DNA of 64,000 nt from Eledone cirrhosa (lineage: Eukaryota), in the NCBI GenBank assembly GCA_964016885.1, contig OZ024741.1, positions 289,044,001-289,108,000 of the forward strand, given 5' to 3'. Of the stretch, positions 829 to 60,701 are shown one piece after another. The position numbers and the translations under genes are program-made. The number at the start of each line of letters is the position of its first letter. The stretch's first letter is position 1. The notes under the pieces are model-generated. The model saw only the letters and a program-made list of their open reading frames with translations, was not told the origin of the DNA and did no database searches.

Positions 829-3395
829 CCCTTTAGCGTTCAAAGCGACAAAAACCGACAAAATTATGTCCCCTTTCATTTATTCAAACCGACAAAAACC
901 GACATTTCAGACCACTCGTAGATATCCTTCTAAAAATAAACATTGACATCATCAAAATCTCGTCAATTCGAGATTACAGCGAGATAAAGCCCTTACGCGC
1001 GAAAATTAACTCTTAGTATAGTTAAAGACCTTGTGATAACACGTGTTTTTAACTTTGAAATTGTAACATGGCTTCCGAAAGCAGCGACAACGATTTTGAA
1101 GGTTTCACATCCTACGACATTCAAGATAACAAAGAAACAGAAGATAATATCAGTGATTTATCTTCAAATGAATCAGATATATTTATTTCAGATATATCTG
1201 ATGATGATGATAGTCACTTTGAAAGTGAAAGCGAAGAGATATCTGACACCATTGAAAAAACACCAACGTGGTTGAAAAAAACAACACCGATACATGTTTC
1301 GGATTTTAATGAAAATTCTGGACCACAACACACATTACCACCCGATGCTAAAGCTCTGGATTATTTTTTTTTATTTCTACCACAAACTTTCTTCGAAGTT
1401 GTGGCAGAGGAGACAAATCGCTATGCACAACAACAGATTTCTAATCGAGGAAAACCCGATCTGTTATGGCGTCCGACAGATTCTGCCGAAATGAAAGCGT
1501 TTTTTACCATAAACATTATGTTTGGTATTAAACAATTTCCACGACTGTGGAATTATTGGAGTACTGATATAAGGTTTGGTGACCCTTATATATCTAGTAT
1601 TATGGCCAAAACGAGATTTATAAAATTAAACCAGTATTTGCATCTGGTTGATACTACAAATGCCCCTGGTAGAAATGAATCGAATTACGACCCACTGTAC
1701 AAAGTACGACCATTAATTGAAATGTTGACGGAAAAATTTAAAAGTATGTATTTACCTGGAAAAAATCTTAGTGTTGATGAAGCTATGATTGGATATAAGG
1801 GTAGGGTTCATTTCAGACAGTATATGCCAGCTAAACCCACCAAATGGGGCATCAAAGTGTGGGAACTGTGTGAATCGGACACGGGATACTGTGTAAACTT
1901 TGATGTTTACACAGGAAAAAAACTTAACGGAGAGAGAAAGCACGGGTTGGGTTACGATGTTGTGTGGTCGCTGACTCAACCCTTCCACTTTCAACACAGA
2001 CACATTTATTATGACCGTTTTTTTTCTTCGGTGCTTTTAGCAGAGGATCTTGCCCTTGTAAATACGTACACCTGCGGCACAATAATGAGCAATCGGAAAG
2101 GACTACCCCAAGAAATAAAAGTTGCAAAACTAAAAAACAGAGGAGACATTCTCCAAATGCAAAAAGAGAACATGTTAGCCACAGTGTTCAAAGACAAACG
2201 GCAAATTTTGTTCCTGAGTTCTAACCAACAACCAGGTGTTGGGGCTGAGGGTAGACCTTTAGTTAACCTCTCCTATAATAAATATATGGGTGGGGTTGAC
2301 AAATCCGACCAATATTGCGCGTATTACCCAGTTGGACGCCCTGGAAAGAAATGGTGGAGATACATCTTGTGGTTTTTAGTGAATTTAACCATTGTAAATT
2401 CTTATATTGTATTTACTAAAAGCCACAAGGATCCGCCACCACCAAAGGACTACTGCCACATGAAATTTCGCGTGGACATTGCATCCCAGCTACGTGGGGG
2501 ATATACTTCTCGCAAACACAAAGCTGGGAAAAAATCAAAATTAGCAGTGGTCCACAAAGAAAATATTGATTTTCATAAAGTGGAGAGAATTGATGGTAGG
2601 AGGAAGGTTTGCCGATTGTGCTCTTTGCAAAAGAGAAAAACTGTTAAAGGTTACGCAATCCAAACCCTATTTATGTGTTCCTTTTGCAAAGTGCCCTTAT
2701 GTAAAGGGTGCTTTGGGCAGTATCACGATCGAAATATTGTCTAACAATATTGAAAACACTATTTTAAAAATATATTAGCACACATATACAAAAACACCTG
2801 CATTCACCTGTGACACACCTGCATCACACCTGTTAATGAACTTATATATTGGGAACATTCTGTTACGTAATTTTACACCGTACATTGTGTAAGAGTACAT
2901 TGCCAATATTATTTTGACTGGTGAAAAGGTTTTATACATTTTTTTCAATGAAAATATTTGCCTGGAATGTAGAGAAAGACTAAAACATTGTACTGATTAC
3001 ACCTGCATTTTTAATTAATTCACCTGTTCGGAAAACTGCTAGAATTGATGGAAATCAGCATCTAGATCATTATTGGATTTTTTTGCAACAAATCTAACAG
3101 GTAAGGCAGATAAAGTTTAAATTTTTGTGTTTATCCATAAAGTTATTACTTTTACACCTGTTAATTAATTTTACCTGCCCATAAAAGTCAAATTTAACAA
3201 AAAAAAATCAGGTAAAATTATATAATTGTAAATTATAGTTCTTTAAACGTCTACTGACAAAATTTCAAGTCTGCACATAGAAAATTAAAGTAATTAGAAA
3301 CAAATAAAATTGATAACCCTCTTGAGTATAATTAAGTGAAAATAATGCGAATAGATGAACATGACATTTGACAATTCAATGTGAATGCTAAAGGG
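829..3395 (+). mobile_element. Full-length piggyBac DNA transposon
   Basis: TTAA at 825-828 and 3396-3399. TIRs CCCTTTAGCGTTCA (829-842) and TGAATGCTAAAGGG (3382-3395) match at 13/14. Subterminal repeats (ccgacaaaaaccgaca at the left, CACCTG clusters at the right). Encloses the transposase ORF. Confidence 0.95.
1068..2744 (+). CDS. piggyBac transposase (DDD catalytic domain + C-terminal Cys-rich domain), 558 aa
   Basis: Uninterrupted ORF with acidic N-terminus, motifs LSVDEAM, QYMPAKPTKWGIK, YYDRFF, YNKYMGGVDKSDQ and C-terminal CxxC...CxxC...LCxxCF...H. Confidence 0.95.
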   Translation: MASESSDNDFEGFTSYDIQDNKETEDNISDLSSNESDIFISDISDDDDSHFESESEEISDTIEKTPTWLKKTTPIHVSDFNENSGPQHTLPPDAKALDYFFLFLPQTFFEVVAEETNRYAQQQISNRGKPDLLWRPTDSAEMKAFFTINIMFGIKQFPRLWNYWSTDIRFGDPYISSIMAKTRFIKLNQYLHLVDTTNAPGRNESNYDPLYKVRPLIEMLTEKFKSMYLPGKNLSVDEAMIGYKGRVHFRQYMPAKPTKWGIKVWELCESDTGYCVNFDVYTGKKLNGERKHGLGYDVVWSLTQPFHFQHRHIYYDRFFSSVLLAEDLALVNTYTCGTIMSNRKGLPQEIKVAKLKNRGDILQMQKENMLATVFKDKRQILFLSSNQQPGVGAEGRPLVNLSYNKYMGGVDKSDQYCAYYPVGRPGKKWWRYILWFLVNLTIVNSYIVFTKSHKDPPPPKDYCHMKFRVDIASQLRGGYTSRKHKAGKKSKLAVVHKENIDFHKVERIDGRRKVCRLCSLQKRKTVKGYAIQTLFMCSFCKVPLCKGCFGQYHDRNIV

Positions 3396-3504
3396 TTAAA
3401 CAATCGAAAGATCATCAGACCTGCCAACCTCTAACTCCCCAAACGGGGAGAAATGAGACAAAACGAGGAAACATACTCATTTTCAGAATAGAAGGCATCG
3501 CTAT

Positions 3505-3640
3505 TATAGTGACCCCAGTATGTTACTGGTGCTTTATTTTATCAATCTCAAAAGGATGAGAGGCAAAGCTAACCTCGGCGGGAATTGAAATCAGAACGCA
3601 ATTCTATGCTACAAAGCATAGTGTCCGACGCTCTACCGCT
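3505..3640 (-). mobile_element. tRNA-like SINE copy
   Basis: Reverse complement of the SINE core (aaggatgagaggcaaagctaacctcggcggg). Confidence 0.6.
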
Positions 3641-3969
3641 CTTTTGACAGAAGTCTTCATTAATATTGAATTTGATTTATAAGTGTATAGGGCTTTTAAT
3701 TTCTGTTCGATTTTTTTTTTTTTTTTTTTCTTTTCCAAAATAACATCAGAAGCACATTTATTTAAAAATTCATTCTGTAATTAGTAAAATATATACATTT
3801 CTATCCGCAGAAATTTGATTGCAGCTTTTAGTTTCCACTTATTTTGAAAATGATATTTATTCGCTATAAAAATTAAATGATAGTATTCTATATGAAGGTG
3901 GACCCCCCCCCCCCCCCCCCTCTCTTCTGGCAACCAATGTTTAGACCCAGTCCGCCACTATCTCTACCT

Positions 3970-4432: not shown

Positions 4433-4599
4433 TTCCCGTCAAGAAGGCGACAGCAACAGGATAACATTGCCCCCCCCCCCCCTCCATCTTCGGTAAAAGA
4501 AGGCACTCGAGTCTCAGCATACTGCCTGGCAGCCCGACCTGGTAGGAGTTTCATCTACCACCATTAACAAGGGGAAGGCAACAACTGACATTAACATAA

Positions 4600-5181
4600 C
4601 CCGATATGTAGATGACATACTCATCCTTGCATCATCCCGTGAAGAAGCGAATAAAATATACATGGCATTCTCCAGCATGGACGCCAATATTAAGTTCAGC
4701 ATGAAACATCCCGCTGAGCGGGGATCCATATCCCTATAGACTTCCAACTCAGGGCAACAGAGGACGGCGACATCTACACCTGCTTCTATAAAAAAAGCCG
4801 CCAGCAGGGACCTGTTCGTCCATTTCAGGTCGGCCCTCCCACATGGTGCCGATTTCGGAGACATAAGGAACGAACTGACACGTATCCGGAACAAGTGCAC
4901 TGACGCAAGAGACCGAGACACACACACCACATACTTCCTGGAAGTACTTAAACTAAATGGATACCCGACGTCAACCGTGCCAGAAACGACAGAAGACCCC
5001 ACGCACGAAGCACTCACTAACACCTGCTTCCTCAGTGGTGAAACTACAACAGCCATCCGCGGGGCCATCAGACGAGAGGGACTAGATATCAGCTAGCCCA
5101 CTCAGGTCCTTCTCTACGCGGACAGCTAGCCAAGAGACACTCCACCAGACAAGACAGCCGCTGCACGCTGGCCAACTGCCC
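4600..5181 (+). pseudogene. PLE RT fragment, same family as 26736-27980
   Basis: Begins at the RYVDD motif; close similarity to 27203-27805 with indels. Confidence 0.85.
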
Positions 5182-5185
5182 CGAA

Positions 5186-5270
5186 GCGCAGTAAATCGCT
5201 TCGACTTCCGCTGCCGTTCCAAACGGCATAACATCACACGGGGCGAACTCCTCGCCCTCCGCTCCATCCT
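5186..5270 (+). pseudogene. Short fragment of the C-rich PLE family
   Basis: Matches 10705-10785 (gcgcagtaaatcg...ctccgctcc). Confidence 0.75.
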
Positions 5271-5289
5271 TCCAAGCCACTTTTTTCAC

Positions 5290-5485
5290 ATAAAACGGGA
5301 AGAATTTCCAAAGCTGATCAGATTAGAACAAAAATCACGAGCACTCTATCTCAAAAGTTTTATTTTGAAAAGCATAAATGCGCAACCGGTAAAAGCTGAA
5401 TACTAACCAATACTTATTACTAATTTATACGTATTCCTAATTAAACCATTTTTCACTGGGAAAAATATGTCAGCATTTTCTTTTC
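5290..5485 (+). repeat. PLE terminal (pLTR-like) repeat with degenerate hammerhead motif
   Basis: Homologous to 44205-44420; contains TTGAAAA-GCAT-AA-ATGC-GCAACCGGTA. Confidence 0.55.
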
Positions 5486-6289
5486 CTTTTTACTAATATA
5501 TCACAACTCGCGTGTCACACCTCTATTTTATATCTTTACCCTTTCTAACAGTCACTCTCTCTGTTAGCCTCTTCCTCACCCTTCACTCACTCACTCTCTC
5601 TCTGCTACTACCTCTCCTACTTCCTCCCGTTTGACCTGTGCGTAATTCTTTTCTCGCGCACGCTTGACCAGGCTGGTTGTTCCTTTTTTCTCTCTCGTCT
5701 ACGATTTCACAGAACTTATGTTTACCGAATTCAAGGATTAGACCCCCCCCCCCCCCGTTTTACCTGTGCGGAATTCCTTCCTTGCTCACATTTCGACTAG
5801 GTTTGATGGTCTTTATTCTCTCTCGTTCACGATTTCACCGAACTTATATTCATGGAAATCTGGGACTTGACTCTTTCTTCCTCATTTTTCGTTGCTTTAC
5901 CATCTTTGTTTGTTTGCACTCTCGCTGTCCCCTTTATTTACGTGTCCCAACGACTTTCTTTAGCCGTTGCTCACACCAACCGGAGGTATATGGTCTTTAA
6001 AGCGATGAAATACCAATGAAGGTTGGAAGATCACTGATGAAGGACTAACTTTATATATATATATATATATATAGATATATGTTGTCTAACCTGATTAGTT
6101 TTTTCGTCGTTTTGATATTGTATGGCTGGGTTTTGCCTGCCGCAATTTTCAATTTCTCAAGCTATCTAAACGTAATGTTATTATTCTGAGGTCCTACCCT
6201 TATTGAGTGCTTTACTACTCATTCCTTATTGTAGGTCGACTTTGCTTGGCCGCAGCCAAAGCTTCGATTTTACTAAGCTTCCACACACA

Positions 6290-7190
6290 CATCAAACCCG
6301 CGGACAAGGGAGGATCCGTGGTGGTGTGGCGCCTCTACACGGCTGAAGCCCTCGGGCTGCTCCGTAACCCCCTCTTCTACCGCCCTCTACCCTCAGACCC
6401 CACACCCTTCTACCAATAACAAGTTTCCTCCACCATCCAACACCTTGTCTCCTCCTCCCTCCTCCCCCACCGCTTCCCACCTCATCATCCGCACCCCCAC
6501 TATCTACTTCCTCCCCCAAACTCCACAAACCCGACCGCCCCATCGTCTCCGCTTTCAAATTCCCCACCGAACTCATCTCCGCCTTTCTTGACTTCATCCT
6601 CCCCCCCCTCGTCACCACCCTCCCCTCCCACATCTCCGACACCAACCACCCACTTCGCCTATTCGACTCCTTCACCTTTCCACCCAGCCCTTCCTCTTCA
6701 CCCTAGATATCAAGTCGCTTTATACTGTCATCCCACACGCCGACGGCGTACGTGCCCTCAATCACTACTTCGATCTTCGCCGCTCCCCTCCTTCGCCTCT
6801 CCGTGCTGGTCCTCACCCTCAACGGTTTCTCCTCGGGTGAGTTTTACCAACAGGTCAAGTATGGGCCCAAACTATGGCAACCTTTTTACTGGTCATGTTG
6901 AGGCCCAAATATTTCCCCAGTACACCGGCCCCACGCCCGAACTGTACGGTCGTTACATCGACGACTGTAAAGGAGTCACGACCCTCACCTCACCCGAGAA
7001 CAGCTCGACTCCTTTCTCTGCTCCTTCCAGCCCTCCCTCCACTTCACCACCTCTCTATCTCCACCACCCACGTCCACTTTTTAGACATCTCCGTCGCCAT
7101 CGACCCCTCCCACCACTCCCGCGTCACCTCCGCCTTCTTCAAACCCACCGAATCCCACCTCGACTTCACTAAACACTATTCCCTACTCCG
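6290..7190 (+). pseudogene. C-rich PLE RT fragment (Neptune-like)
   Basis: IKPADKGG, LDIKSLY, MGPNY, YGRYIDD, FLDI and FFKPT motifs in shifted frames; similar to 10810-11740. Confidence 0.85.
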
Positions 7191-7204
7191 CGACGTTATC
7201 TAGC

Positions 7205-8160
7205 CTTAACTTCTACAAGGCTAACTGGAAAAAGATCAAGAGAGAAATCCGTAAGCAAATATGGAGCGAAAACACCGCCACACAAGACACTAACACACCT
7301 AATTTCAACACTTCATGTCAACGATACACACTATATGCAAACATTTTGTCCAGGAGAAAGACATAAACATCTTATTCCCAGAGATAGGAAAATTCTTATG
7401 AGACGAAGAACGAAGCTCTCAAACCAGCTGAATGCACAACAAGAAAACAAAAACAAGAAGGGATTCTATTTTAAACGTGCACTACTTGACATCGAGATTG
7501 CACCCAAACTTTCCCATGAAAATGAGATGACAAAGAAAGAAAGCAGGGCCATAGAAAAAATTAAAACACACCCTAAAGCCTTCTTTAAGTTTGAAAAAGA
7601 AACTGCCCCGGTACACTGCAAGATTGGGCCACTCTTCCATACAGACGGTTCATTAACGGAGAATCCCCAAGAGATATATGTGAAATACTGAACGAACAGT
7701 ACAAAAGTGTGTTCACATGTCCACTGAGGCACATGCAAATAACAAAGCCAGACGAGTTCTTTGATGCCACAACACTACATGAAGAAATGGCGACCATCAA
7801 CCGCATAGACATAACGCCATAGTTGAAATTAGAACAGACTCAGCTGCTGGACCTGATGGATTCCCAACAGTCCTCTTAAAAACATGTAAGCGGGCCTTAG
7901 CAACTCCACTGAAGATGCTCTTCAGAAGCTCCTTGGCTAGTGGTATACTACCCAGGGAGCTGAAAGAAGGCACAATATGCACAAGGTAGCAGAGCGGAGG
8001 CCAAAAACTATAGGCCAGTCTTCCTGACGTCGCATATCAGTAAGGTCATGGAGCTAGTCATCAGAAAGAAACTGATCACTTTCCTCGAGGAAAATGACCG
8101 CCCGACTAGCACGCAGCATGACTTCATCACTACGACTGGGTACTGAAACAACTGCTAGAC
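7205..8160 (+). pseudogene. Non-LTR LINE ORF2 remnant (CR1/Jockey group)
   Basis: NFYKANW, AIEKIKTHPKAFF, SAAGPDGFP, NYRPV segments with stops and frameshifts. Confidence 0.75.
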
Positions 8161-8164
8161 AGAT

Positions 8165-8570
8165 AACTTGCTTTCACATACACACACACACACCACCTTC
8201 AGCCCTCCCCGCTCAGACACCCCGTCTCCCTCTCCCCACTCCACCCACCACCACCCCTACACCCTTCCACCACCCCTACACGCCCCGCACCCTTCCACCA
8301 CCTGTTTTACCCCATTTTAATTTTATTTTGATCATGCCTTTATTTTTAATTTCATTTGCACCATTTCCTTTCACCCCCTTTTTGCTATATGTCTCTCCAC
8401 TCCCCTACACACCCTTTGAACTCTCTTCCCACACACTTTTCACCTGAAGAAGGGATTATGCCCGAAACGTCGTTCCCCACCACCACCCCACTCTCAAGAG
8501 CGTGAAATTAATAAACATTTGTTTGTACTGCCTCTCTGTTTTGTTCCCGTTCAATTTTTCATTATATAGG
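8165..8570 (+). repeat. 3' UTR/pLTR of the C-rich PLE family with hammerhead-like core (8444-8471)
   Basis: Reverse complement of ~34290-34640; CTGAAGA-A-GGG...CCC-GAAACGTC. Confidence 0.75.
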
Positions 8571-8930
8571 ACACTGAAGGACAAACATTTACATTTAAAG
8601 ATGACCAAACATTTACAGTAAAAAAACAATTTCACCTGCAACTCGGAGAACTTGATTTACGCAATAACTTGCGGTGGGTGCAAACACAACTACATAGGAC
8701 AGACGGGCACCTCATTACGCAAAAGAATGACCATCCACCGCCAACAAATCCGGGACGCTAACACAAGAAAAATCCCCTTGAGCAGCCATATTGCGAACTG
8801 CGCAGGAATGACACTACCCAACTTTAAAACCTTCCCCTTCTACAAGTGCTCAGATTCGTTCACAGCAACAAAGAAAATCTATTCCTTAACAAATTTAAAC
8901 CAAAACTAAACGGGTTATCACCCCAATAGA
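8570..8930 (+). pseudogene. PLE GIY-YIG endonuclease fragment
   Basis: FTCNSENLIYAITCGGCKHNYIGQT...RKRMTIH; related to 37800-38084 and 42760-43081. Confidence 0.85.
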
Positions 8931-9425
8931 ATTGTCATAAAATATAAACACACATACGCACGGAGTGACAGATATGTGTGCATGTATATAATTATCACTA
9001 CTATTAAAGACCAGAGACCAATTCTGTAGAATCAGGTTTATTCGTTGACAGACCATGCCTTTGTGTGATCAACACATCCATGTTAAACCCTGCACGTGCA
9101 CACACGTATATCTATATATATATATATATATGCGCACACAGAATTCACCACTATCGGTTGCGGGGCCCAATCTACATGAAGAACTCAATGTGATCAGAAT
9201 GACTTGTATTTTAATTTCACTGTTCTAACTTCTTATATTATGGAAAAAATATGTATATATATATATTTGGAGGCCATTTCTCTATGTGTTGGTATGTGTG
9301 TGTCTGGATGTATGTGTATGTATATTATGTGTGTGTGTATATATATGTGTGTGTGTGTGTGTGTATGTATATGGGTGTGTGTGTGTATGTATATGTATGT
9401 GTGTGTGTATGTATGTGTATATATA

Positions 9426-10329: not shown

Positions 10330-12470
10330 AAACTCAAGGACACAAAACCTCAACCACAACCTCTTCTCGTTCCTCAGCTCCACCAAAGCCCGCAAGCTAC
10401 CCCCCCCCCCCCCCCACCCCACACCCAAACCCCACCCCTTGACCTCCCCCTCTCCGCACCTGAGCGCTCACTCCTTAGTAGAGGCCTTCGCTTCATACCC
10501 CACACTCCGCACAGCGACGAGTTCCGCACCCGAACGGAAGTCGAGCGATTCGTGCGACGCACTAAGCTACAGGCACATTTCGGCTGAACGCCACCGGCTC
10601 CGGACGCCCCAGACCCGTTTCTCGCCCTGGGCCGACGACCATCTTCTTGGACGCCGGCCCCAGGGCAATTTAGCACCCTGAACGCCTTCGTCGATGCCAG
10701 CCGTAGCGCAGTAAATCGTTTCGACTTCCGCCGCCGTTCCAAACGGTACAATATCTCACGGGGCGAACTCCTCGCTCTCCGCTCCCTCCGTAGCCGAGAA
10801 GACATCGTCATCAAACCGGCGGACAAGGGAGGCGCCGTAGTGGTGTGGTGCGCGGACCTCTACACGGCCGAAGCCCTCAGGCAGCTCTGTAACCCCCTCA
10901 TCCCTCCCATCCCACCCCCCTCTACCAACAACAAGTCTCCTCCACCATCAAAGACCTTATCGCGTCCTCCCTCCTCCTCTCCACCGCTTCCCACCTCATC
11001 GTCCGTACCCCCGCCATCTACTTCCTCCCCAAACTCCACAAACCCGACAACCCTGGCCGCCCCATCGTCTCCGCTTGCAACTGCCCCACCGAACTCATCT
11101 CCACCTTTCTCGACTCCCTCCTCGCCCCCCCCCCCCCCTTGTCACCACTCTCCCCTCCCACATCTCCGACACCAACCACGCCCTGCGCCTTTTCGACTCC
11201 TTCACCTACCCACCCGGCCCACAGCCCTTCCTCTTCACCCTAGACATCAAGTCCCTCTATACAGTCATCCCCCACGCCCTCACACTACCTCGACCTTCGC
11301 CCCTCCCCCATTCCCTCCACCCCCACCCTCCTTCGCCGAGCTGGTCCTCACCCTGAATTGTTTCTCCTTCTCGGGTGAGTTTTACCAACAGGTCACCAAC
11401 AGCCCGAACTATGCCAACCTTTTTGTTGGCCATGTTGAGGCCCAAATCTTTGCCCAGTACACCGGCCCCACGCCCGAACTGTACGGTCGTTACATTGACG
11501 ACTGTATCGGAGCCACGATCCTCACCCGAGAACAGCTCGACTCCTTTCTCTCCTTCTTCTGCTCCTTCCACCCCTCCCTCCACTTCACCACCCACGTCCA
11601 CTTCTTAGACATCTCCGTCGCCTTCGACCCCTCCCACCACTCACTCGTCACCTCCGCCTTCTTCAAACCCACCGACTCCCACTCTTACCTCGACTTCACC
11701 TCTTCCCACCCCACCCACACTAAACACTCCATTCCCTACTCCCAACTTCTCAGGATCCGCCGCCTCTGTAGCCGTGATGCTGACTTTGAGTCCCAGGCCC
11801 TTTCCCTAGTCAGCCATTTCATCCGCAGAGGTTACCCCCCACCTTTCACCTGCGCCGTCCCCCGCTCCACCACCCTCACCCCACGCCACCGCACACCCAC
11901 CGTCTCCCCTTCCCCATCACCTACCACCCCTCCACCGGACCATCCGCCGCCTCCAGTCCGACCCCTCCACCTCCCACATCTTCCCAACCCCACCACTCCC
12001 CTCCTTCAAACGCGCACGCAATCTCCCCATCCTCCTCGTCCACAGCTCCCTACCCTCCAACGCACGCTCTGTTCCCCCCCCCCGGTTCTTTTCCCTGTTC
12101 TAGGCCCCGCTGCAACACCTGTCCCCACATCACCAACACCACCACCTTCCAGGGTCCCAACGGCCACTCTCTCTAGGTCCGGCATGCCTTCCGCTGTACC
12201 TCCTCTTATGTCGGACAGACTGGACGTCGCCTGGCGGACCGAGTCACGGAGCACCTCCGGGATATTCGTCTCGGGGGCAGTTCCCCCATCGCCCGCCACT
12301 TTGGTGGCCCTGGACATTCCGCACGCCATCTCACAGTCTGTGGCCTACTCCAGTGCCACGGAACACCCGCCAATCGCCTTACGGTCGAACAACGAACTAT
12401 CATCTTACAGACCCACACTCCCCCGGCCTGAACTCCCCACCCTTATTCCTTTAGCCTTCGGCCGCCCCCC
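10330..12470 (+). pseudogene. C-rich PLE (Neptune-like), RT through GIY-YIG, frameshifted
   Basis: IKPADKGG, NCPTELIS, LDIKSLY, YGRYIDD, FFKPTDSHSYLDFTSSHP, IPYSQLLRIRRLCS, then CSRPRCNTC linker remnants. The 574-aa ORF is a frameshift mosaic. Confidence 0.9.
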
Positions 12471-45062: not shown

Positions 45063-45145
<83 letters not shown>

Positions 45146-50018: not shown

Positions 50019-50199
50019 GGTAGAGAAGGAGAGATAGAGTGGGGACAGACGAGAGCTATGGGATGGGTGTAAATTGAGTTCTAGTACAAATTGCACTAAG
50101 TTTCCATTTATAGTGATAAGCAGGGTATTGTCTTGTAGTGTGGGGGAAGAGAAGTGGTTAGCTAGAAAGCAATGTTATAGTTACGGGTTCGAAGTTATT

Positions 50200-51430
50200 T
50201 TATAGTGAGAGAATTTAGCCTTTCAGTTTGTGGTTGCAGTATAATGATCGTTATCATTTAGTAATTTATTTTGGGATTTTAAGATGTAAAAGAGTTCAAG
50301 GTTACATAACCTACAGTACTTCAATCCACTCCGATATGCACTAGCGCTAGAAAGTATATTCCATTTCAAGGTGAACTGTTGGTTGCGTTCACGGAGTTGC
50401 CAGGTCTTGTTGGCGAGCGTGGTCACAAAACGGTGATTAGGATGTTTAATTGAGAATTCATAACGATACCAGCGAGATTTAAAGGAGGTAGTGGTAGACC
50501 CGATGTAATACCATTTCTGGTCGTTCGATTCAACAGTGCATTGGTAAACAATGTTGGACTTTAGGCATGTAGTAAAGAGTTGCCTCCCATGCCATGACAA
50601 ATCTCATCACCGCTCTCTAGACAGGAAGTAGGTGGAGTTGCTTCCCTTTGGGATTGACCAGACTCCCTGGTGGTCACTTCCGGTCAACAGATATAAAAGG
50701 AGCGGTTTACCACGAGATCTCTCACTCTCGCCTCCTGATTCCCGAAGTGGTAACACCTTCGACCATAGCTTGTGATTCCTTCTGGACGACCCTTCGTTAC
50801 CAAACACAATGCAGCTTGCAGCCTGAGATGAGAGCCTAAGATGTTTCTACCAACTTCAGAATTGTATTATTACCATCGGGTAACAAACCCTTATATTATA
50901 TGCCTTTTGACTTCTATGAAGTAAAACTTTATTACGCACACACACACCAGTATTTACTGTCTTTTATATTATGTTGCATGTACACCGATATTTATTTCCT
51001 AAAGGCATTTATTCTTCAATGGACATCTTTCAGGTAGATGGCAGTTACAGTTTGTTGTGAGTAGCGGGTATACCATGGATAGGTTGGGATAGCAGTACAG
51101 GTGGGTTGTGTAATACCCGTCTCCCATTTAGTGGTTGAGAGGCCGATATTACGTTATGGTCATCTGTTATTAAAATATTGTTTTGTAGTGTTGTTTAATT
51201 GAAGTTTTTTTTATGTATGCTTCAAGGTTTGGTGCCGTGGAGTATGATAGTCTAATAGTTTTAGAGTTCAGAATTTTACTGTATTTATGGGACCTAGAGA
51301 AATGCTTGTTGATTAACTTAAAGAATGAAAGAGATAGTTTTGTACTAATCGAAGCATTAAAAATGGGATTATACCAGATATACTTTCTACAGCGTGATTT
51401 ATTTGGTGATGATTTTCTATTATTAGTATG
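50200..51430 (-). pseudogene. PLE (Nematis-like) 3' fragment interrupted by an LTR
   Basis: RKYIWYNPIFN, RLSYSTAPN, CNC..CPL, SNIVYQC...YYIGST, CRLC on the minus strand. Confidence 0.85.
50568..51002 (+). mobile_element. Probable solo LTR
   Basis: 435-bp insertion splitting the PLE reading frame, flanked by AGGCA (50563-50567, 51003-51007). Starts TGTAGTAA, ends TTCCTAA (degenerate inverted end); TATAAAA at 50692; partial homologue at ~42336-42530. Confidence 0.65.
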
Positions 51431-51565
51431 TCTGGTGGTACTGCGTGTGTGCGCTTGTATTTCAGTGCCCCGGTTACGTATTCTTTGATTCCGTGTAGAG
51501 CTATGCATGTTATGGATAATCTTATCAATGCATTCTATTGTATCCCGGTGGTCGGCATTCCTTAA

Positions 51566-53096
51566 CCCTTTAACATTCAAAACGACAAAAACCGACAAGA
51601 TTATGTCCCCTTTCATTTATTCAAACCGACAAAAACCGACATTTAATACTACACGGAGATCTCCTTCTAAAAATAAACATTGACATCGTCAAAATCTCGT
51701 CAATTCGAGATTACTGCGAGATAAAGCCCTTACGCGTGAAAATTAACTCTTAGTATAGTTAAAGAACTTGCGATAACACATGTTTTTAACATTGAAAGTG
51801 TAACATGGCTTCCGAAAGTAGCGACAACGAATTTGAAGGTTTTACATCCTACGACATTCAAGATAAAAAAGAAACAGTGATATCAGTGATTTATCTTCAA
51901 ACGAATCCGATATATTTATTTCTGATATATCTGATGATGATAGTCACTTTGAAAGTGAAAGCGAAGATATAACTGACGCCATTGAAAAAACACCAACGTG
52001 GTTGAAAGAAACAACACCGATACATGTTTCGGATTTTACTGAAAATACTGGACCACAACACACATTACCACCCGATGCTAAAGCACTGGATTATTATTTT
52101 TTATTTTTGCCACAAACTTTCTTCGAAGTTGTGGCGCAGAAGAGATAAATCGCTATGCACACCAACAAATTTCTAACCGAGGAAAACCTGATCTGTTATG
52201 GCGTCCGACAGATTCTGCCGAAATGAAAGCGTTTTTTACCATAAACATTATGATTATGTTTGGTATTAAACAATTTCCACGACTGTGGAATTATTGGAGT
52301 ACTGATATAAGGTTTGGTGACCCTTATATATCTAGTATTATGGCAAAAACGAGATTTATAAAATTAAACCAGTATTTGCATCTGGTTGATACTACAAATG
52401 CCCCTGGTAGAAATGAATCAAATTACGACCCACTGTACAAAGTACGACCATTAATTGAAATGTTGTCAGAAAAATTTAAAAAGTGTGTATATACCTGGAA
52501 AAAATGCGAAACTGAAAAACAGAAGGGACATTCTCCAAATGCAAAAAGAGAACATGTTAGCCACAGTGTTCAAAGACAAACGGCAAATTTTGTTCCTGAG
52601 TTCTAACCTACAACCAGGTGTTGGGGCTGAGGGAAGACCTTTAGTTAACCTCTCCTGTGGAATTATTGGAGTACTGATATAAGGTTTGGTGACCCTAATA
52701 TATCTAGTAGTATGGCAAACACGAGATTCATAAAATTAAACCAGTATTTGCATCTGGTTGAAACTACAAATGCCCCTGGTAGAAATGAATCAAATTACGA
52801 CCCGCTGAACAAAGTACGACCATTAATTGAAATGTTGTCAGAAAAATTTAAAAGTGTGTATATACCTGGAAAAAATCTTAGTGTTGATGAAGCTATGATT
52901 GGGTATAAGGGTAGGGTTCATTTCAGACAGTATATGCCAGCTAAACCCACCAAGTGGAGCATCAAAGTGTGGGAACTGTGTGAATCGGACACAGGATACT
53001 GTGTAAACTTTGATGTTTACACAGGAAAAAAACTTAATGGAGAGAAAACACGGGTTGGGTTACGATGTTGTGTGGTCGCTGACCAATCCTTCCACT
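51566..53096 (+). mobile_element. Rearranged, truncated copy of the piggyBac at 829
   Basis: TTAA (51562-51565) + CCCTTTAAC left TIR; high identity to the first element, with frameshifts, an internal deletion and a re-duplication. Confidence 0.93.
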
Positions 53097-53109
53097 ACGT
53101 CGAACAGAC

Positions 53110-55050
53110 TGGAAGTCGAACAGACTACGAAGTCCATAGACGAGGTTGGAGGTGATGCAGCGGAAGGCGCATCGGAGAGAGTGGCCGTTGGGACCCTGGC
53201 AGGTGTGGAAGCTAGGCCTGGAGCAGGGGAGGGTTGTGGGCTAGGGAGCTGCGGACGAAGAGGGGGCGGGTGGAAATTACGCACGCGTTTGAATGAGGGG
53301 AGGGTGGGGATGGGGGCTCGGACTGGAGGCGTCGGAAGAAGCGGAGGATGGTGCGGTGGAGGGTAGGGTAGAGGGGTGGTAGGTGATGGGAAGGGGGACG
53401 GTGGGTGGGTGTTCGGGGGCGTGTGCAGCACGCGCGCGAGGGCGGTGTGGACGAGGGAGGGGGGTAACCTCTCCGGATGAAATGGCTGACTAGAGAAAGG
53501 GCCTGAGACTCGAAGTCAGCATCTCGGCTGCAGAGGCGGCGGATCCGGAGGAGTTGGGAGTAGGGAATAGGGTGTTTAGTGTGTGTAGGGTGGGAGGAGG
53601 TGGAGGTGAAGTCGAGGTAGGAGTGGGAATCGGTGGGTTTGAAGAAGGCGGAGTTGACGAGGGAACAGTGGGAGTGGTCGATGGCGACGGAGATGTCCAA
53701 GAAGTGGACGTGGGTGGTGGATATAGAGGCGGTGAAGTGGAAGGGGCAGAAGGAGAGAAAGGAGTCGAGCTGTTCTCGTGTGAGGTTCGTGGTTCCGATA
53801 CAGTCGTCGATGTAACGACCGTATAAAGTTCGGGCGTGGGCCGGTATACTGGGCAAAGATTTGGACCTCAACATGGCCAACGAAAAGGTTGGCATAGTTT
53901 GGGCCCATTCTTGTGCCTATGGCTACCCTAGTTACCTGTTGGTAAACCTCACCCGAGAAGCAGTTGAGGGTGAGGACCAGCTCATCGAGGCGAAGGAGAG
54001 TGGGGGTGGAGGGCATGGGGGAGGGGCGAAGGTCGAGCCTGAGGGCACGTAGGTCGTCGGCGTGGGGGATAACGGTGTAGAGGGACTTAATATCTAGGAT
54101 GAAGAGGAGGGGTGTGTGCCAGGTGGGAAAGTGAGGGAGTCGAACAGGCGAAGGGTGTTGTTGGTGTCGGAGATGTGGGAGGGGAAGGGCGAGGATGGAG
54201 TCAAGAAAGACGGAGATGAGTTCTGTGGGGCAGTTGCAAGGAAGACGATGGGGCGGTCTGGGTTGTGGAGGAAGTGGATAGAGGGGGTGCGGACGATGAG
54301 GTAGATGAGGTGTTGGATGGTGGGTTGGTAGAGGGGTGTGGGGTCGGAGGGTAGAGGGCGGTAGAAGAGGGGGTTACGGAGCTGCCTGGAGCTTCAGCCT
54401 TGTAGAAGTCAGCGCGCCACACCACCACGGCGCCTCCCTTGTCCGCCGGTTTGATGACGATGTCATCTCAGCTATGGAGGGAGCAGAGAGCGAGGAGTTC
54501 GCCCCGTGTGATGTTATGCCGTTTGGAACGGCTGCGGAAGTCGAAGAGATTTACTGCGCTACGCCAGGCGTCGACGAACGTATCCAGGGTGTTAAATTGC
54601 CCGGATGCCGGCGTCCAATATGATGGTCGTTGGCCCAGGGCGAGAAAGGGGTCTTGGGCTTCCGGAGCCCGTGTGGTTTGGTGAAAATGTGCCTGTAGCT
54701 TAGTGCGGAACTCGTCGCTGTGCGGGTTGTGGGGTATGAAGCGCAGGCCTCTACTGAGGAGTGAACGCTCATGTGCGGAGAGGGGGAGGTCAGGGGTATG
54801 GTGCCAACAAATGGGGGTGGGTGGGTTATTTAGGTGTTAGAAGGGAGTGTGGTGGGCGTGATATGAGGTAGGGGTGTGAGGCTAGCGAGGGTAGTGTGGG
54901 GTGGTAGGAATGGGTGAGGTCGGGAGTGAGTGTAGCTTAAGGGCTTTGGTGGAGGTGAGGAAGGAGAAGAGTTCGTGGATGAGGTTTTGCATGAAGAGGA
55001 AGGAGTGTGCGAGGAAGGGTGGCAGGCGGAGTAGAGGCGGAGGAGGGTGG
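53110..55050 (-). pseudogene. C-rich PLE RT fragment
   Basis: Reverse complement of the 10330-12200 family: GTRMGPNYANLF, YGRYIDD, IPYSQLLRIRRLCS. Confidence 0.9.
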
Positions 55051-55057
55051 GGTGAGT

Positions 55058-55960
55058 TTGTGGTCAGCGTAAATGGAATTAATCATCGCGATATTTCCAT
55101 CGCTACCGCTACTACAGCAGATAGCATTAATTGGCTGAAACAACATGAACTTCTGAATACTGAAAAGGTCTGCCCTTCATGCGGTGAACGCATGATGGAA
55201 GTAGTGAAAAAAAATGTGTCAGATGGAATTATCTGGTCATGTGGAACGCCATGTAGAAAAATGGTGGTGTCTATTAGAAAAGGAACATTTCTAGAAAATA
55301 GTAAATTGAAGTGTCAACAAATAATTGACATATTGTATTATTGGGCAAAAGAAGATTTAGCCAAGGGGATTTCACGGGAATCTCGTATCGCGAATGTAGC
55401 CGTAGCAGATTGGCGAAAGTTTTGCCCGTCATGTGCAGAATATTATGTGGCACAAAACATTAAAGCTTGGCGGGCCAAACCGAATTGTTGAGATTGACGA
55501 AAGCGCCTTCATGAGAAGGAAATACAATGTTGGCCATCAGGTTAAAACAGAGTGGGTCTTTGGTGCTTTGGAAAGATATACCAGAAGATGTTTTTTAGTG
55601 GCAGTGGAAGACCGGACAGCAGACACGCTTTTAGCAATTATACAATATCGTATATTGCCTGGTACGACAATAATTTCTGACCTCTGGCGCTCCTATAATA
55701 CGATCAATCAGCTAGGCTATCAACATTTGACTGTAAGCCATTCCATCAATTTTGTTGATCCTGTAACATTTGCCACAACTAACCACATAGAATGCTTGTG
55801 GAAACATGTAAAGAATCGGAATAAAAGAGAAAACGGAACAGCCAGAAATTTGCTTCAATCCCATCAAATTAAATTCATGTGGTGGTATGAATTTAAGGAT
55901 GAAATTTTCCAAAAATTATTGGAACATATTCGTCATCTTTTCATGGAACAGATACACATT
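55058..55960 (+). pseudogene. Merlin (IS1595-like) DDE transposase, frameshifted
   Basis: CPSCG...WSC..SIRKGTFLENSKL, then GGPNRIVEIDES, WVFG, ILPGTTIISDLWRSY, HLTVSHS.NFVDP...TNHIE; frameshift near 55425. Confidence 0.9.
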
Positions 55961-56230
55961 CTTCATAAACGTATAAGGTTGGTGAAAAAAAAAAATGAAC
56001 ATATATTTATTTATAAACTTAACTTCATTTGTTTTCTAATTTGATAACCATGACTATGAAAATATATAATTTTTAAACTTAACTTAACTGCGAGGAGACC
56101 CAGATGTTTTTACCTGTCGATCTCAGAGACCCTGTTAAACAAAGCGTTGGACTTCGCTACCACTTATACCACATTGACAATATTATACACATAAACAACA
56201 TATGTACTTGTCTATACCATACTAATTCAA

Positions 56231-56285
56231 ACTGCCTGAAGAGGTCACAGCGAAAGATGGCTGTCACTGAAATATATATAGCAGT
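56231..56285 (+). ncRNA. Type I hammerhead ribozyme motif (homologue of 31371)
   Basis: ACTGC-CTGAAGA-GGTcACAGC...GCTGTcACT-GAAA-TATATATA-GCAGT. Confidence 0.7.
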
Positions 56286-56328
56286 AATAAACGAAGCTAA
56301 ATTTTAATCATTTGACTTTTATTTAACT

Positions 56329-56894
<566 letters not shown>

Positions 56895-57533: not shown

Positions 57534-57823
57534 ATGTTCTATGTGTGTATGTGTTTTCATTTTGTCTTGTGTGTGTTTTCAATTGTAAGTTGTTTGTTCT
57601 ATGTGTGTGTGTGTTTTCATTTTGTCCTTAATTGTAAGTTGTGATGTTGCTGTTCCACTCATATTTTCTATTTAATTTTGGTTTTAATTCTTTTATGCTT
57701 ACTGCCTCTGTAATTTGCCTAAACATTGCGTCTTTCTTGTGTGTGGATTCTATTTTTATTTCTATGCTCTCTAATTTACCCCTGTGTTCTATCTTAGCAT
57801 GTTGGTAGAGCACAGATGACTCT
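57534..57823 (-). repeat. Inverted copy of the 3' end of the adjacent PLE
   Basis: Minus-strand ORF 57628-57813 is identical to the last ~61 aa of the 772-aa ORF (60004-60237 region). Confidence 0.95.
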
Positions 57824-57880
57824 CCGTTTTATAGCCCCTCCGATAAATCATTCGACCTACGACGAGTCCACGCCACGACT

Positions 57881-60199
57881 TTGCCATTTAACAAACGCAC
57901 GCAGTTGCCGTCGCAGGTCGATGAACAAACAGAAGCACAATTTAGTATAGCTAAATCCGAACTTAGAAATATTATAGAACAGTATAGCAAGAAGCATAAT
58001 AGAATAGAGGCCCAGCAACTGGGAGAAGAATCTGCAAATGGCTTGCGTAAGCTCATGCAGCGCTCGCATAATGGAGAGATAGCATGCTTTCCAACAGACA
58101 AGTCTGGCAGAATGTCGGTTGACAGCCTGCCAAACTACATCCAGGCAATGCAACCCCACATCACTAACACAAGAGAGGTAACACCACAGGAGCATGAGGA
58201 TAGAGAAAAAACCCTCAATGCCCATATGGTGATGTGGACAAATATAATGCAGCCCAACAAAAGGACTGCCAACAACTTCCAGGCCTGGAACAATGACGTG
58301 CCGGCGCTGTATGGGCTTCGAAAAGACCATAAAACGGGCTGGGACCCTGTCGCGGGACCACCAACACGGCCAGTCTGTGGGGCTAACATTGCTAGTAACT
58401 ACAGACTGTCCTACTTCCTCTCCCTGATCATACGCCCCATCATTGAGATGTCCCCAGATGTGTGTGACAGCACGGAGGACCTCCTCAGCAGAATCGGCGC
58501 GGGTAACCGATCTGGGGACCTAACAAACTGCATAATAGGCAGTATGGATGTTGTGTCCCTGTATCCATCTATTGACGTGGATTTTGCTGTGGAGAAATGC
58601 GTCGAAATGATCAGCGAGAGCAAGGTTGAGTTCCGTGGGATTGATACCAGTGAGCTGGGACTTCTACTTAAGCTTACCCATAGTAATAGTTACCTAGACA
58701 CTTATGACCTTAGCAACCTGTGCCCTACAAGACCAGCAAGAGGCAGACCACCTACCATTACCTCAATGGCCAAGAAAACCCACACAGATAGATGGAACGG
58801 GTGGACCAGAGCCATACGGACACCCGAAAACCACGATGAACTGAAGAAAATGATTGCACATGCGGTAGGGGCCAGCATAAAATTAACCCTTAAGGAACAT
58901 ATGTTCAAATTTAATGGTAAAACATATGCCCAAGAGGAAGGAGCAGCCATTGGTGTTAGCATTGCAGGCGACATAGCTAACTTATTCATGGTATGGTGGG
59001 ACAGTAGACTTAAACAAAAACTTAATGAACAATTAGAAGACAGCTTAACCCTGATAATGTACTCCCGCTACGTAGATGATATAAACATCGTAGTTAAGAC
59101 ACCCCCACTAAAGAACAGTCAGGAACTAGAGAAAAACACAATGGAAAGCATCCAGCAAATAGCAAACTCCATCCACCAGAGCATTAGAGTTACTATAGAC
59201 TACCCAAGTAGACACCCCAACCATCGATTACCTGTACTAGACACAGAGCTCTGGTTAGATACAATTAACAACCAAAAACAAATCCTCCATTCCCATTATG
59301 CCAAACCCATGACTTCCAAACATCTGATCCACCGAAACTCGGCCATTTCGGACCATACAAAAATCAACATACTGATTGCGGATTTGGTACGGGTGATGAG
59401 AAATGTGTCCCGCATGTGCAACCCCGAAGAACTAGAGAGACACATACAACACTTCATCCACCGTATGCAGTTCTCTGGCTACAATCAGAGAGATAGAATC
59501 AGAGTGTATAAAGGAGCCAGAACCAAATGGGAAAAAATGGTAAATAATGACATAAATGGGACCTGCCCCTTGTATAGGAGCAAATTTTGGAATAGAATAG
59601 AAAGAACTAAGAACAAGGCCAATAGAATAAACTCATGGTATGATAGCAATAAATACCAGAGTGTAATGTTCATCAATACAACCCCTAGAGGCGAACTAGC
59701 CTACAAATTTAGAATGGCCCTAAAGAAACATAATCTCAATATTAAGATAGTAGAAAGACCTGGTACCTCCGTAAAAACACTTATTAGCAAGACATACCCG
59801 TTCCAAAGACCCTCATGTATAGATAAGAAATGTATAACCTGTAAAATAAGCCCCCATATTAACTGTAAAACTAGAAATGTAGTATATAGCATAAGATGTA
59901 CTGAAGGACAATGTAGAAACAAAAATATAGTGTACATAGGTGAGACAGCTCGTAGTATAGGGGAACGAATAAATGAACTCTGGCGAGACCTCCAAGATAA
60001 TAAAGAATCATCTGTGCTCTACCAACATGCTAAGATAGAACACAGGGGTAAATTAGAGAGCATAGAAATAAAAATAGAATCCACACACAAGAAAGACGCA
60101 ATGTTTAGGCAAATTACAGAGGCAGTAAGCATAAAAGAATTAAAACCAAAATTAAATAGAAAATATGAGTGGAACAGCAACATCACAACTTACAATTAA
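57881..60199 (+). CDS. PLE RT + GIY-YIG endonuclease, uninterrupted 772-aa frame, 5'-truncated
   Basis: PTDKSG, LRKDHK, RPVCG, SMDVVSLYPSI, QEEGAAIG, SRYVDD (59069), PVLD, HYAKP, CxxxxCxxC, NVVYSIRC...VYIGETARS...RQITEA. The frame stays open upstream of the listed TTG start to the inversion junction; no ATG at the start. Confidence 0.92.
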   Translation: MPFNKRTQLPSQVDEQTEAQFSIAKSELRNIIEQYSKKHNRIEAQQLGEESANGLRKLMQRSHNGEIACFPTDKSGRMSVDSLPNYIQAMQPHITNTREVTPQEHEDREKTLNAHMVMWTNIMQPNKRTANNFQAWNNDVPALYGLRKDHKTGWDPVAGPPTRPVCGANIASNYRLSYFLSLIIRPIIEMSPDVCDSTEDLLSRIGAGNRSGDLTNCIIGSMDVVSLYPSIDVDFAVEKCVEMISESKVEFRGIDTSELGLLLKLTHSNSYLDTYDLSNLCPTRPARGRPPTITSMAKKTHTDRWNGWTRAIRTPENHDELKKMIAHAVGASIKLTLKEHMFKFNGKTYAQEEGAAIGVSIAGDIANLFMVWWDSRLKQKLNEQLEDSLTLIMYSRYVDDINIVVKTPPLKNSQELEKNTMESIQQIANSIHQSIRVTIDYPSRHPNHRLPVLDTELWLDTINNQKQILHSHYAKPMTSKHLIHRNSAISDHTKINILIADLVRVMRNVSRMCNPEELERHIQHFIHRMQFSGYNQRDRIRVYKGARTKWEKMVNNDINGTCPLYRSKFWNRIERTKNKANRINSWYDSNKYQSVMFINTTPRGELAYKFRMALKKHNLNIKIVERPGTSVKTLISKTYPFQRPSCIDKKCITCKISPHINCKTRNVVYSIRCTEGQCRNKNIVYIGETARSIGERINELWRDLQDNKESSVLYQHAKIEHRGKLESIEIKIESTHKKDAMFRQITEAVSIKELKPKLNRKYEWNSNITTYN

Positions 60200-60413
60200 G
60201 GACAAAATGAAAACACACACACACATAGAACAAACAACCAACCAACAATAAATAAATAAATAAGCAAACAAATAGAAAAATAGAAAAATGAACACAAACA
60301 CACACAGACACCCGGATGTGGCGCATGCGCAAACTGAGCACGCAACCCACACACAAACAAAATGGCGTAGGATAGAAGAAAGGAAAGGCACAGAAACGAA
60401 GAAAAAAATCCCC

Positions 60414-60458
60414 AGTCACTGAAGAGGTCACAGAGTGTGTGACGAAAGAACTATGACT
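60414..60458 (+). ncRNA. Minimal type I hammerhead ribozyme in the PLE 3' UTR/pLTR
   Basis: AGTCA-CTGAAGA-g-GTCACA(GAGTG)TGTGAC-GAAA-G(AA)CTA-TGACT; perfect 5-bp stem I and 6-bp stem II. Confidence 0.78.
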
Positions 60459-60701
60459 ATATATATATATAAACAACTATCTGGTTGTGGAACCAACCAA
60501 CCAACCAGAAATTTATAAATTTGTAAATTTATAAATATATAATAAATTAAATTGAAGTGAAAGCAACTGGTGCGTGTGTTTCTTATTGGCAACATGACCC
60601 TCCCAAAGTATAACAATATCGGTTTCAACACACGATTTCAGATAAAGAATCTTGCTAAACAAATTCAGAAACGACTGTATATATATATATATATATATAT
60701 A

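What the first reader, a model, noticed from the sequence alone, without database searches (positions are those of the whole stretch)
829..60670. Strongly co-oriented TE mosaic: candidate uni-strand piRNA cluster / TE trap
Seen: by my count 23 of 27 protein-coding TE fragments are on the + strand. That includes all six DNA-transposon pieces (3 piggyBac, hAT, 2 Merlin), which normally insert without orientation bias. Fragments of unrelated classes abut directly or across (TA)n. Recognisable SINEs are common at the window edges but almost absent from 4.5-60.7 kb. A simple binomial gives about 1.6e-4 one-sided, though the fragments are not fully independent. Known: flamenco-type clusters accumulate TE fragments antisense to one long precursor transcript. 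Inference: a minus-strand precursor would give antisense piRNAs against PLEs, piggyBac, hAT, Merlin and LINEs. Alternatives are orientation selection inside a host intron, or concatenation by PLE RT template jumping.
Basis: partly seen in the sequence, partly recalled or inferred. Interest (0 to 1): 0.75.

Follow-up and report, generated by a model that had tools for sequence, protein, structure and literature searches.

The report
One-way Penelope and DNA-transposon trap
In an octopus-like genome, a 56-kb pile of separately inserted, broken jumping-gene pieces faces 85% one way while comparison DNA shows no such bias; it likely marks a long backward transcript that would yield transposon-silencing small RNAs, but no RNA data were available and the only neighbouring gene found points the wrong way to drive it.

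Summary
In detail: 22 of 26 coding TE fragments lie on + (two-sided p 5e-4), including 6 of 6 DNA transposons. Seven further non-coding Penelope-type tails are all +. Controls show no bias: neighbours of 20 copies of two of the same families (24 same, 26 opposite), three gene intervals (14 antisense, 16 sense) and the wider flanks (21:21). The pieces are separate insertions into each other, cut down later by deletions. Four DNA transposons keep transposase-made ends, so RT template-jump concatenation is not the general cause. The block gathers Penelope-like elements and DNA transposons but not RTE, Tx1 or SINEs. Best reading (0.45): a flamenco-like locus under orientation selection by a minus-strand precursor. 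Against it: no RNA run was available, no minus-strand gene or promoter was found at the right end, and the only host gene (a single-copy orphan ORF ending 0.9 kb left of the window) is on +, so read-through from it would be sense. The scan has already noted stronger one-way loci elsewhere in this genome (unchecked AI notes).

The parts
829..3395 (+). Intact piggyBac (561-aa stop-to-stop frame), both terminal repeats, TTAA on both sides; separate insertion left of the dense block
4599..5182 (+). PLE RT fragment (my label PLEa), cut at both ends
5182..8574 (+). One C-rich PLE copy (PLEb) interrupted by about 1 kb of other repeats and by a LINE piece; ends in a tail with a hammerhead-like core (8444)
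7188..8170 (+). LINE fragment (CR1/L2-like by recall), cut at both ends relative to other copies
8575..8940 (+). PLE GIY-YIG fragment
10340..13368 (+). PLEb copy lacking its 3' end
13368..15142 (+). hAT middle part; both ends of the 4.1-kb element are missing
   Evidence: hAT label recalled from motifs; no Pfam hit
15142..16173 (+). PLE 5' half (PLEc group), 3' half missing
16203..16892 (+). Internally deleted Merlin/IS1595-type element with both terminal repeats and a 9-bp TATAATATA duplication in TA-rich DNA
16910..18660 (+). PLE (PLEc group), deleted RT plus endonuclease region
18956..19629 (+). 299-bp tandem repeat of a PLE-tail type with a hammerhead-like core (retrozyme-like); stem I only 1-2 bp
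19630..20691 (+). PLE 3' half (PLEc group)
21275..21639 (+). Retrozyme-like repeat
21845..25058 (-). REL-type non-LTR element (R2/NeSL-like by recall), low-copy family
26319..28597 (+). PLEa insertion (26736-28597) with the usual inverted 3' copy on its 5' side
28640..30540 (+). LINE RT fragment
31073..31460 (+). Solo PLE tail with hammerhead-like core (31374)
32702..36890 (+). PLE (PLEc group) whose tail (36250-36890) is separated by a minus-strand insertion
34168..35965 (-). PLEb 3' half with tail, nested between microsatellites
36957..38081 (+). PLE RT-thumb and GIY-YIG fragment (PLEd)
40190..40270 (+). Minimal type I hammerhead-like motif with 4-bp stem I (solo tail)
40436..41313 (+). 295-bp retrozyme-like repeat, 3 units
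41678..42263 (+). Deleted piggyBac of a related subfamily; TTAA plus 5' terminal-repeat-like end
42614..43078 (+). PLE GIY-YIG fragment
44630..46811 (+). PLE (distant PLEa relative), RT and GIY-YIG
47504..48930 (+). PLE 3' part (PLEc group)
50184..51561 (-). PLE 3' part (PLEc group), target of the third piggyBac
51566..53098 (+). piggyBac with TTAA and 5' terminal repeat, internally shuffled (forward jump, then backward jump); junctions not seen in 40 scored copies
53130..55066 (-). Older, heavily deleted PLEb copy
55067..56050 (+). Merlin/IS1595-type transposase fragment
56183..56891 (+). Solo PLE tail with 5-bp stem I (56236) followed by a retrozyme-like repeat
57589..60670 (+). Young PLE (796-aa frame, inverted 3' copy at 57589-57823, complete minimal hammerhead at 60419); the 40 scored copies are 99-100% identical

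Best explanation
The block is a pile of separately inserted Penelope-like, piggyBac, hAT, Merlin and LINE pieces, 22 of 26 facing one way, and it is likely kept that way by selection on a long minus-strand transcript that would be cut into antisense piRNAs. Shown: the density, the family enrichment, the strand bias against controls, and insertion into each other followed by deletion. Inferred: PLEs seed and re-target TA repeats, which builds a nest; copies antisense to a minus-strand transcript are kept because they give silencing RNAs and carry no sense poly(A) signal or ribozyme; copies of the other orientation are lost more often. Untested: the transcript, its promoter (it would have to be stand-alone, right of about 60.7 kb) and any piRNA output.
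For: Bias 22:4, p 5e-4. Non-PLE pieces 8:1, DNA transposons 6:0. Seven non-coding hammerhead-bearing tails not in the coding count are all +; shuffles give 0-1 motif per strand. No hidden minus elements were seen in 38 non-coding segments, though many had no informative copy. Controls are random: anchor neighbours 24 same and 26 opposite; gene intervals 14:16; flanks beyond -64 kb and right of the block 21:21; different-family neighbours within 3 kb 25 same of 45. Coding TE cover is 48% against 10-16%. Family-selective: 17 PLE and 6 DNA pieces, 0 RTE or Tx1 of 26, against 61 of 122 elsewhere. The + run continues left for 11 of 11 fragments. flamenco-like clusters hold TE fragments opposite to transcription (PMC10643416, passages); molluscs have piRNA clusters enriched for young TEs (PMC6128900, section 9); stand-alone clusters exist in Aedes (10.1101/2022.08.22.504762, passages).
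Against: No minus-strand gene or promoter was found at the right end; short exons could be missed. The only host gene is on +, so read-through from it would be sense, and a precursor covering the left + run would cross it antisense. The bias is 85%, weaker than the near-complete bias noted for other loci of this genome. Minus-strand PLEb copies are not younger than the plus copy (10% and 5% mismatches against 3%), and one keeps its AATAAA, which purging should remove. The window was picked for its bias. The left-flank support is weaker than it looks: side and boundary were chosen afterwards, 5 of the 11 lie beyond an assembly gap at -41.5 kb, and tandem Tx1/LINE copies are not independent. No strand asymmetry of substitutions (A>G 15, T>C 17). 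SINE orientation is not biased in the left flank.
Confidence: 0.45

Rival explanations
1. A neutral, self-feeding insertion nest (PLEs bring and target TA repeats; piggyBac and Merlin use TTAA or TA-rich sites) whose strand ratio is a chance extreme picked out of a 3-Gb genome.
For: PLE and Merlin junctions sit in (TA)n. PLEs favour microsatellites (PMC8557442, passages). About 47,000 such windows exist, so a p of 5e-4 could arise if several hundred nests are this dense. Minus copies are not young.
Against: None of the 40 control windows of 20 kb approaches this density or bias.
Confidence: 0.22
2. The block lies in a long minus-strand non-coding transcript or giant intron that makes no piRNAs; sense-facing elements are purged because their poly(A) signals or ribozymes cut the transcript.
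For: PLE tails carry AATAAA and hammerhead-like cores, 15 on + and 2 on -; the three with a stem I of 4 bp or more are all on +.
Against: Three intervals inside minus-strand genes show no bias (14 antisense, 16 sense; their intron status is inferred from flanking family matches). No host exon found within 100 kb (ORFs of 45 aa or more) or 300 kb (100 aa or more). It does not explain the enrichment of DNA transposons.
Confidence: 0.15
3. The bias is sense to plus-strand transcription of the neighbouring orphan gene, through transcription-coupled integration or selection against antisense copies.
For: The only gene found lies inside the + run and on +. A piece of its 3' end sits between TA repeats on another chromosome, which hints at germline RNA. 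A plus-strand GTAAGT donor lies at window 53-60.
Against: I know no mechanism that orients cut-and-paste elements by transcription (own knowledge). Plus-strand read-through would meet many poly(A) signals and hammerhead-like motifs. Gene intervals show no sense bias. A promoter-like motif at -61 kb proved to be a repeat.
Confidence: 0.1
4. The block was written by PLE reverse transcriptase jumping between TE RNAs, as a Terminon-like or patchwork cDNA chain.
For: Direct same-strand junctions with about 1 base of overlap; hAT and the second Merlin lack ends; adjoining PLEb, hAT and PLEc pieces have similar divergence (2.0-2.35%); the third piggyBac is shuffled as by template switches.
Against: Three piggyBacs start at TTAA plus a terminal repeat and one Merlin has both repeats and a 9-bp duplication. 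Ages span 0.25-3.9%. Many pieces lack 3' ends. No junction recurs: none among 40 scored hits in each, and 0 of 23 in the fetched DNA. It may still explain a few local junctions.
Confidence: 0.08

Closest known systems
flamenco and flam-like unistrand piRNA clusters of Drosophila (PMC10643416; passages read)
   Same: Dense TE fragments, mostly on one strand, family-selective content.
   Different: There the bias comes from Gypsy LTR elements and the one cluster set with sizes in the passages read spans 227-1,085 kb. Here it is PLEs and DNA transposons, no LTR coding piece was detected, the block is 56 kb (up to about 125 kb with the left run), and no transcript or piRNA is shown.
Mosquito core piRNA clusters (10.1101/2022.08.22.504762; abstract and passages read)
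   Same: Antisense-oriented inserts on one long transcript; two Aedes clusters are stand-alone, far from expressed genes.
   Different: Most start right behind a same-strand gene. Here the adjacent gene points so that read-through would be sense to the TEs; no viral inserts were seen.
Mollusc piRNA clusters of Crassostrea and Lymnaea (PMC6128900; passages and section 9 read)
   Same: Same phylum; clusters enriched for young TEs, including DNA transposons and R2.
   Different: The text read reports no TE orientation bias inside clusters; no cephalopod data (PMC11067994 passages have no octopus).
Non-LTR retrozymes and PLE pseudo-LTRs (10.64898/2026.07.22.740005, first fifth of the text read; PMC8557442, passages)
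   Same: The 295-299-bp tandem repeats match PLE tails and carry a CUGAnGA...GAAA core; inverted 3' copies flank two PLEs.
   Different: In the 300-bp family stem I is only 1-2 bp and Rfam finds no hammerhead, so cleavage is not shown.
Terminons and HeT-A/TART arrays (search listing only; otherwise recalled)
   Same: Co-oriented chains of retroelement pieces.
   Different: This block is interstitial, mixes endonuclease-bearing PLEs with cut-and-paste elements, is not repeated as a unit, and many pieces lack 3' ends.

Membership tests
Unistrand (flamenco-like) piRNA cluster | TE fragment density above genome background | tested here: met
   48% coding TE cover against 10-16% in controls; the library includes the window's own families, which favours the window
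Unistrand (flamenco-like) piRNA cluster | Strong one-strand orientation of fragments | tested here: met
   22 of 26, p 5e-4; controls 24:26, 14:16 and 21:21
Unistrand (flamenco-like) piRNA cluster | One long transcript antisense to the fragments | not testable with these tools
   no RNA holder listed
Unistrand (flamenco-like) piRNA cluster | 24-32-nt 1U piRNAs from one strand | not testable with these tools
   no small-RNA run offered
flamenco proper | Antisense Gypsy/LTR enrichment | tested here: not met
   no LTR-type Pfam domain among 418 window ORFs
Read-through piRNA cluster (mosquito type) | Starts behind a host gene on the precursor strand, inserts antisense | tested here: not met
   the adjacent gene is on +; no minus-strand gene found on the right, short exons could be missed
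Intronic orientation selection | Flanking exons of one gene, and a like bias in other introns | tested here: not met
   no exons found; three gene intervals 14:16
Terminon-like or RT-concatenated element | Pieces RNA-derived with 3' ends, one age, or unit repeated | tested here: not met
   terminal repeats and target duplications, mixed ages, unique junctions
Non-LTR retrozyme (for the 300-bp repeats) | Complete type I hammerhead in each tandem unit | tested here: inconclusive
   core and stem II present, stem I 1-2 bp, two of three units at 40.4-41.3 kb fail the core pattern; no Rfam match

The most novel reading that the evidence does not exclude
A stand-alone cephalopod flamenco analogue that selects for Penelope-like elements and cut-and-paste transposons instead of retroviruses, whose roughly 125-kb minus-strand precursor also runs antisense through a fast-evolving orphan gene and so makes piRNAs against that host gene as well.
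Probability: 0.13. Interest if true: 0.72.

Novelty: new member of a known kind. Interest (0 to 1): 0.4.

Why it matters
My searches (titles and abstract openings) listed no paper describing a cephalopod piRNA cluster, so loci that can be picked from DNA alone give direct targets for small-RNA sequencing in large, Penelope-rich octopod genomes. If confirmed, it would extend flamenco-type orientation selection to PLEs and DNA transposons and to a locus without a read-through driver. If the RNA proves plus-strand, it would be a sense-biased TE pile, which I know no precedent for. As it stands it is a weaker candidate than others already noted in this genome.

Tried and rejected
RNA: no RNA holder listed. 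Three contig sets of one sample were laid on 13300-18800; they only gave collapsed repeat depth and no usable junction evidence. Rfam: only microsatellite noise, no hammerhead. tRNA: none. Host exons: a weak cyclophilin hit at about +155 kb (E 0.003) does not look like an exon on reading. A promoter-like motif with a splice donor at -61 kb is part of a repeat with 1125 candidates; rejected. Orphan ORF: two word-index searches found nothing and the Atlas gave no usable hit; only the full HMMER search found one relative. Extra small deletions in window copies (hAT 7 against 0-2, PLEb 15 against 2-7) looked like a locus signature, but the comparison copies were best hits, and unselected old PLE copies elsewhere have similar loads; not claimed. 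Transcription-linked mutation asymmetry: none in about 160 private substitutions, low power. Absence of RTE and Tx1 is significant as a share but not as a density (about 2.8 expected by my arithmetic); it reflects enrichment of other families. The third gene interval was cut from 200 to 90 kb. Supplements were not opened for any paper; those of PMC6128900 may hold cluster strand data.
Full report
Setting. The window is G000:C2:289,044,001-289,108,000 in a 3.0-Gb animal genome. Clustered protocadherin-type ORFs in control DNA and a neighbouring gene whose only relative is an Octopus vulgaris protein point to an octopod; this is inference. Family labels PLEa-e are mine. CR1/L2-like, R2/NeSL-like, hAT, Tx1, RTE and CRE are recalled from motifs; Pfam gave only RVT_1, GIY-YIG, zf-RVT, endonuclease, DDE_Tnp_1_7 and DDE_Tnp_IS1595 domains.

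The observation. I scanned 418 of 478 window ORFs of 55 aa or more (low-complexity ones dropped) against Pfam, then ran tblastn with a library from the window and from control DNA. The result is 22 plus and 4 minus coding fragments, 24,051 against 4,841 matched bases, two-sided p 5.3e-4. Non-PLE pieces are 8:1 and DNA transposons 6:0. Related pieces mostly belong to different subfamilies (PLEa relatives 64-85% DNA identity, piggyBacs 84-95%; PLEc group 30-62% protein identity), so they are not local duplicates. A motif scan finds 15 hammerhead-like cores on + (two weak) and 2 on -, against 0-1 per strand in 20 shuffles. Seven belong to tails or repeat arrays outside the coding count, and all seven are + (one-sided p 0.008). 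The two minus motifs belong to a counted minus element and to an inverted PLE end.

Controls. Twenty arbitrary 20-kb windows hold 39 fragments, with adjacent pairs 7 same and 13 different. Around ten other hAT and ten other PLEb copies, neighbours are 24 same and 26 opposite. In three intervals between exon matches of minus-strand genes (290 kb) fragments are 14 antisense and 16 sense (Fisher p 0.005 against the block). Different-family neighbours within 3 kb are 25 same of 45, PLE-PLE 5 of 10. In 604 kb of flank the count is 32:21. That splits into 11:0 from -64 kb to the window and 21:21 for the rest. The 11:0 run is suggestive only: I chose side and limit afterwards, five fragments lie beyond an N gap at -41.5 kb, and tandem Tx1/LINE copies co-orient by themselves (17 same of 23 adjacent pairs on the left, the run included).

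Content. Coding TE cover is 48% against 11% (random), 16% (flanks) and 10% (gene intervals). The block has 17 PLE, 6 DNA-transposon, 2 LINE and 1 REL-type pieces, and no RTE or Tx1, which make up 61 of 122 fragments elsewhere. From first-look candidate numbers, which are rough, about 0.06 piggyBac and 0.07 PLEb copies are expected per 60 kb, against 3 and 4 seen. SINEs are scarce (1 hit in 58 kb), but a 46-kb gap also occurs in the flank. The block is thus a selective pile of PLEs and DNA transposons, not of everything mobile.

How it was built. The six families searched are dispersed, with hundreds to thousands of candidates; the REL-type element is low-copy. Private divergence runs from 0.25% (PLEe) through 0.7% (PLEa), 2.0-2.35% (PLEb, hAT, PLEc) to 3.9% (LINE). 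The first piggyBac has both ends and TTAA on both sides. The other two start at TTAA plus a terminal repeat, and the first Merlin has both repeats and a 9-bp duplication, though in TA-rich DNA. Nesting is visible: a LINE piece and other repeats inside one PLEb copy (5182-8574), and a minus PLEb inside a plus PLEc. Ends were lost afterwards: the hAT keeps only the middle 1.8 kb of 4.1 kb, and PLEc 15142 and PLEb 10340 lack 3' ends. No junction recurs among the 40 scored hits, nor for 23 junctions in the fetched loci. Insertion followed by deletion fits; one RT-made chain does not.

What could orient it. A single-copy ORF of 656 codons without introns in its coding part lies on + at C2:289,041,108-289,043,078, ending 922 bases left of the window. 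Its one relative is 30% identical (E 5.6e-20) and is named a hypothetical protein of Octopus vulgaris. Read-through from it would be sense to the fragments, the reverse of mosquito read-through clusters (10.1101/2022.08.22.504762, passages). I found no other host exon: 243 further mostly unmasked ORFs of 45 aa or more within 100 kb, 86 longer flank ORFs and 136 unexplained ORFs of 100 aa or more out to 300 kb gave only TE domains or weak noise. The unique DNA right of the block shows no clear promoter. So a minus-strand precursor would need its own unseen promoter, as in two stand-alone Aedes clusters. In its favour, the hammerhead-like motifs, including the three with a stem I of 4 bp or more, are nearly all on +, so a minus transcript would meet few of them and a plus transcript many. 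This is inference, and the common 300-bp repeat has only a 1-2-bp stem I. Against purging, the minus PLEb copies are not the youngest, and one keeps its AATAAA.

RNA. No run on record as RNA was listed; this says nothing about expression. The contig sets laid were uninformative.

Earlier notes. The scan's notes e1-8667547, e1-8811637 and e1-9875062 describe one-way blocks elsewhere in this genome, two of them said to begin behind host genes with near-complete bias. I did not check them. They prompted my search for a driving gene and pointed me to the mosquito paper. Notes e1-10321118 and e1-9843267 on stacked co-oriented PLE tails prompted the neighbour test, which found no general co-orientation at kilobase scale; the sample is small and tails under 1 kb apart were not tested.

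Verdict. The bias is real and not typical of the genome. The most likely single cause is orientation selection by a minus-strand piRNA precursor (0.45), ahead of a chance extreme among dense nests (0.22), a non-piRNA minus transcript (0.15), sense bias tied to the orphan gene (0.10) and RT concatenation (0.08). It works like a candidate flamenco-type locus, but membership cannot be claimed without RNA, and it fails the read-through and Gypsy features. Interest 0.4.

Noticed in passing
L020:7108-9078 (+), 922 bases left of the window: Single-copy, low-complexity 656-codon orphan ORF with a roughly 40-residue internal repeat; only relative found is an Octopus vulgaris hypothetical protein at 30% identity, so it evolves very fast.
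   Followed up: partly
L098:1501-1820 (G000:C1:276862899-276863217): A 320-bp, 96%-identical piece of that gene (end of ORF plus start of 3' flank) sits between TA repeats, where PLEs insert; possibly a PLE-made copy of its RNA.
   Followed up: partly
window 51566-53098: piggyBac with shuffled interior: 5' part, a jump forward of about 350 bases, then a jump back of about 730 bases; not seen in 40 scored copies. Looks like template switching during repair.
   Followed up: partly
window 57589-60670: Very young PLE family (40 scored copies 99-100% identical) with an intact 796-aa frame, a complete minimal hammerhead, and NRF1-like and YY1-like motifs (recalled) in its tail.
   Followed up: partly
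window 18956-19629, 21275-21639, 40436-41313, 56481-56891: Retrozyme-like 295-299-bp tandem repeats whose hammerhead-like core has only a 1-2-bp stem I; two units at 40.7-41.1 kb have lost three core bases.
   Followed up: partly
window 21845-25058 (-): Low-copy REL-type non-LTR family with a GC-rich 132-bp tandem repeat in its 3' region; three copies cluster on C18 at 15.05-15.07 Mb together with a piggyBac of the window's family.
   Followed up: no
L023-L024 (about 87.4-95.9 kb in window numbering): About 8 kb of degenerate (GTG)n repeats with extreme strand skew; similar skew in control L067-L068.
   Followed up: no
flanks, e.g. L025-L026, L178-L179, L167-L169: Full-length Tx1-like elements occur as co-oriented tandem groups.
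   Followed up: no
window 50590-50830: Unassigned 240-bp insert with a TATA-like box on + inside the minus-strand PLE; no copy in the fetched DNA.
   Followed up: no
L061-L062 (G000:C2:240.00-240.02 Mb): Three tandem minus-strand protocadherin-type ORFs in a random control window.
   Followed up: no
L050:8949-9605 and L066:5352-6026 (-): C2H2 zinc-finger ORFs in two random control windows, next to non-LTR fragments in one.
   Followed up: no
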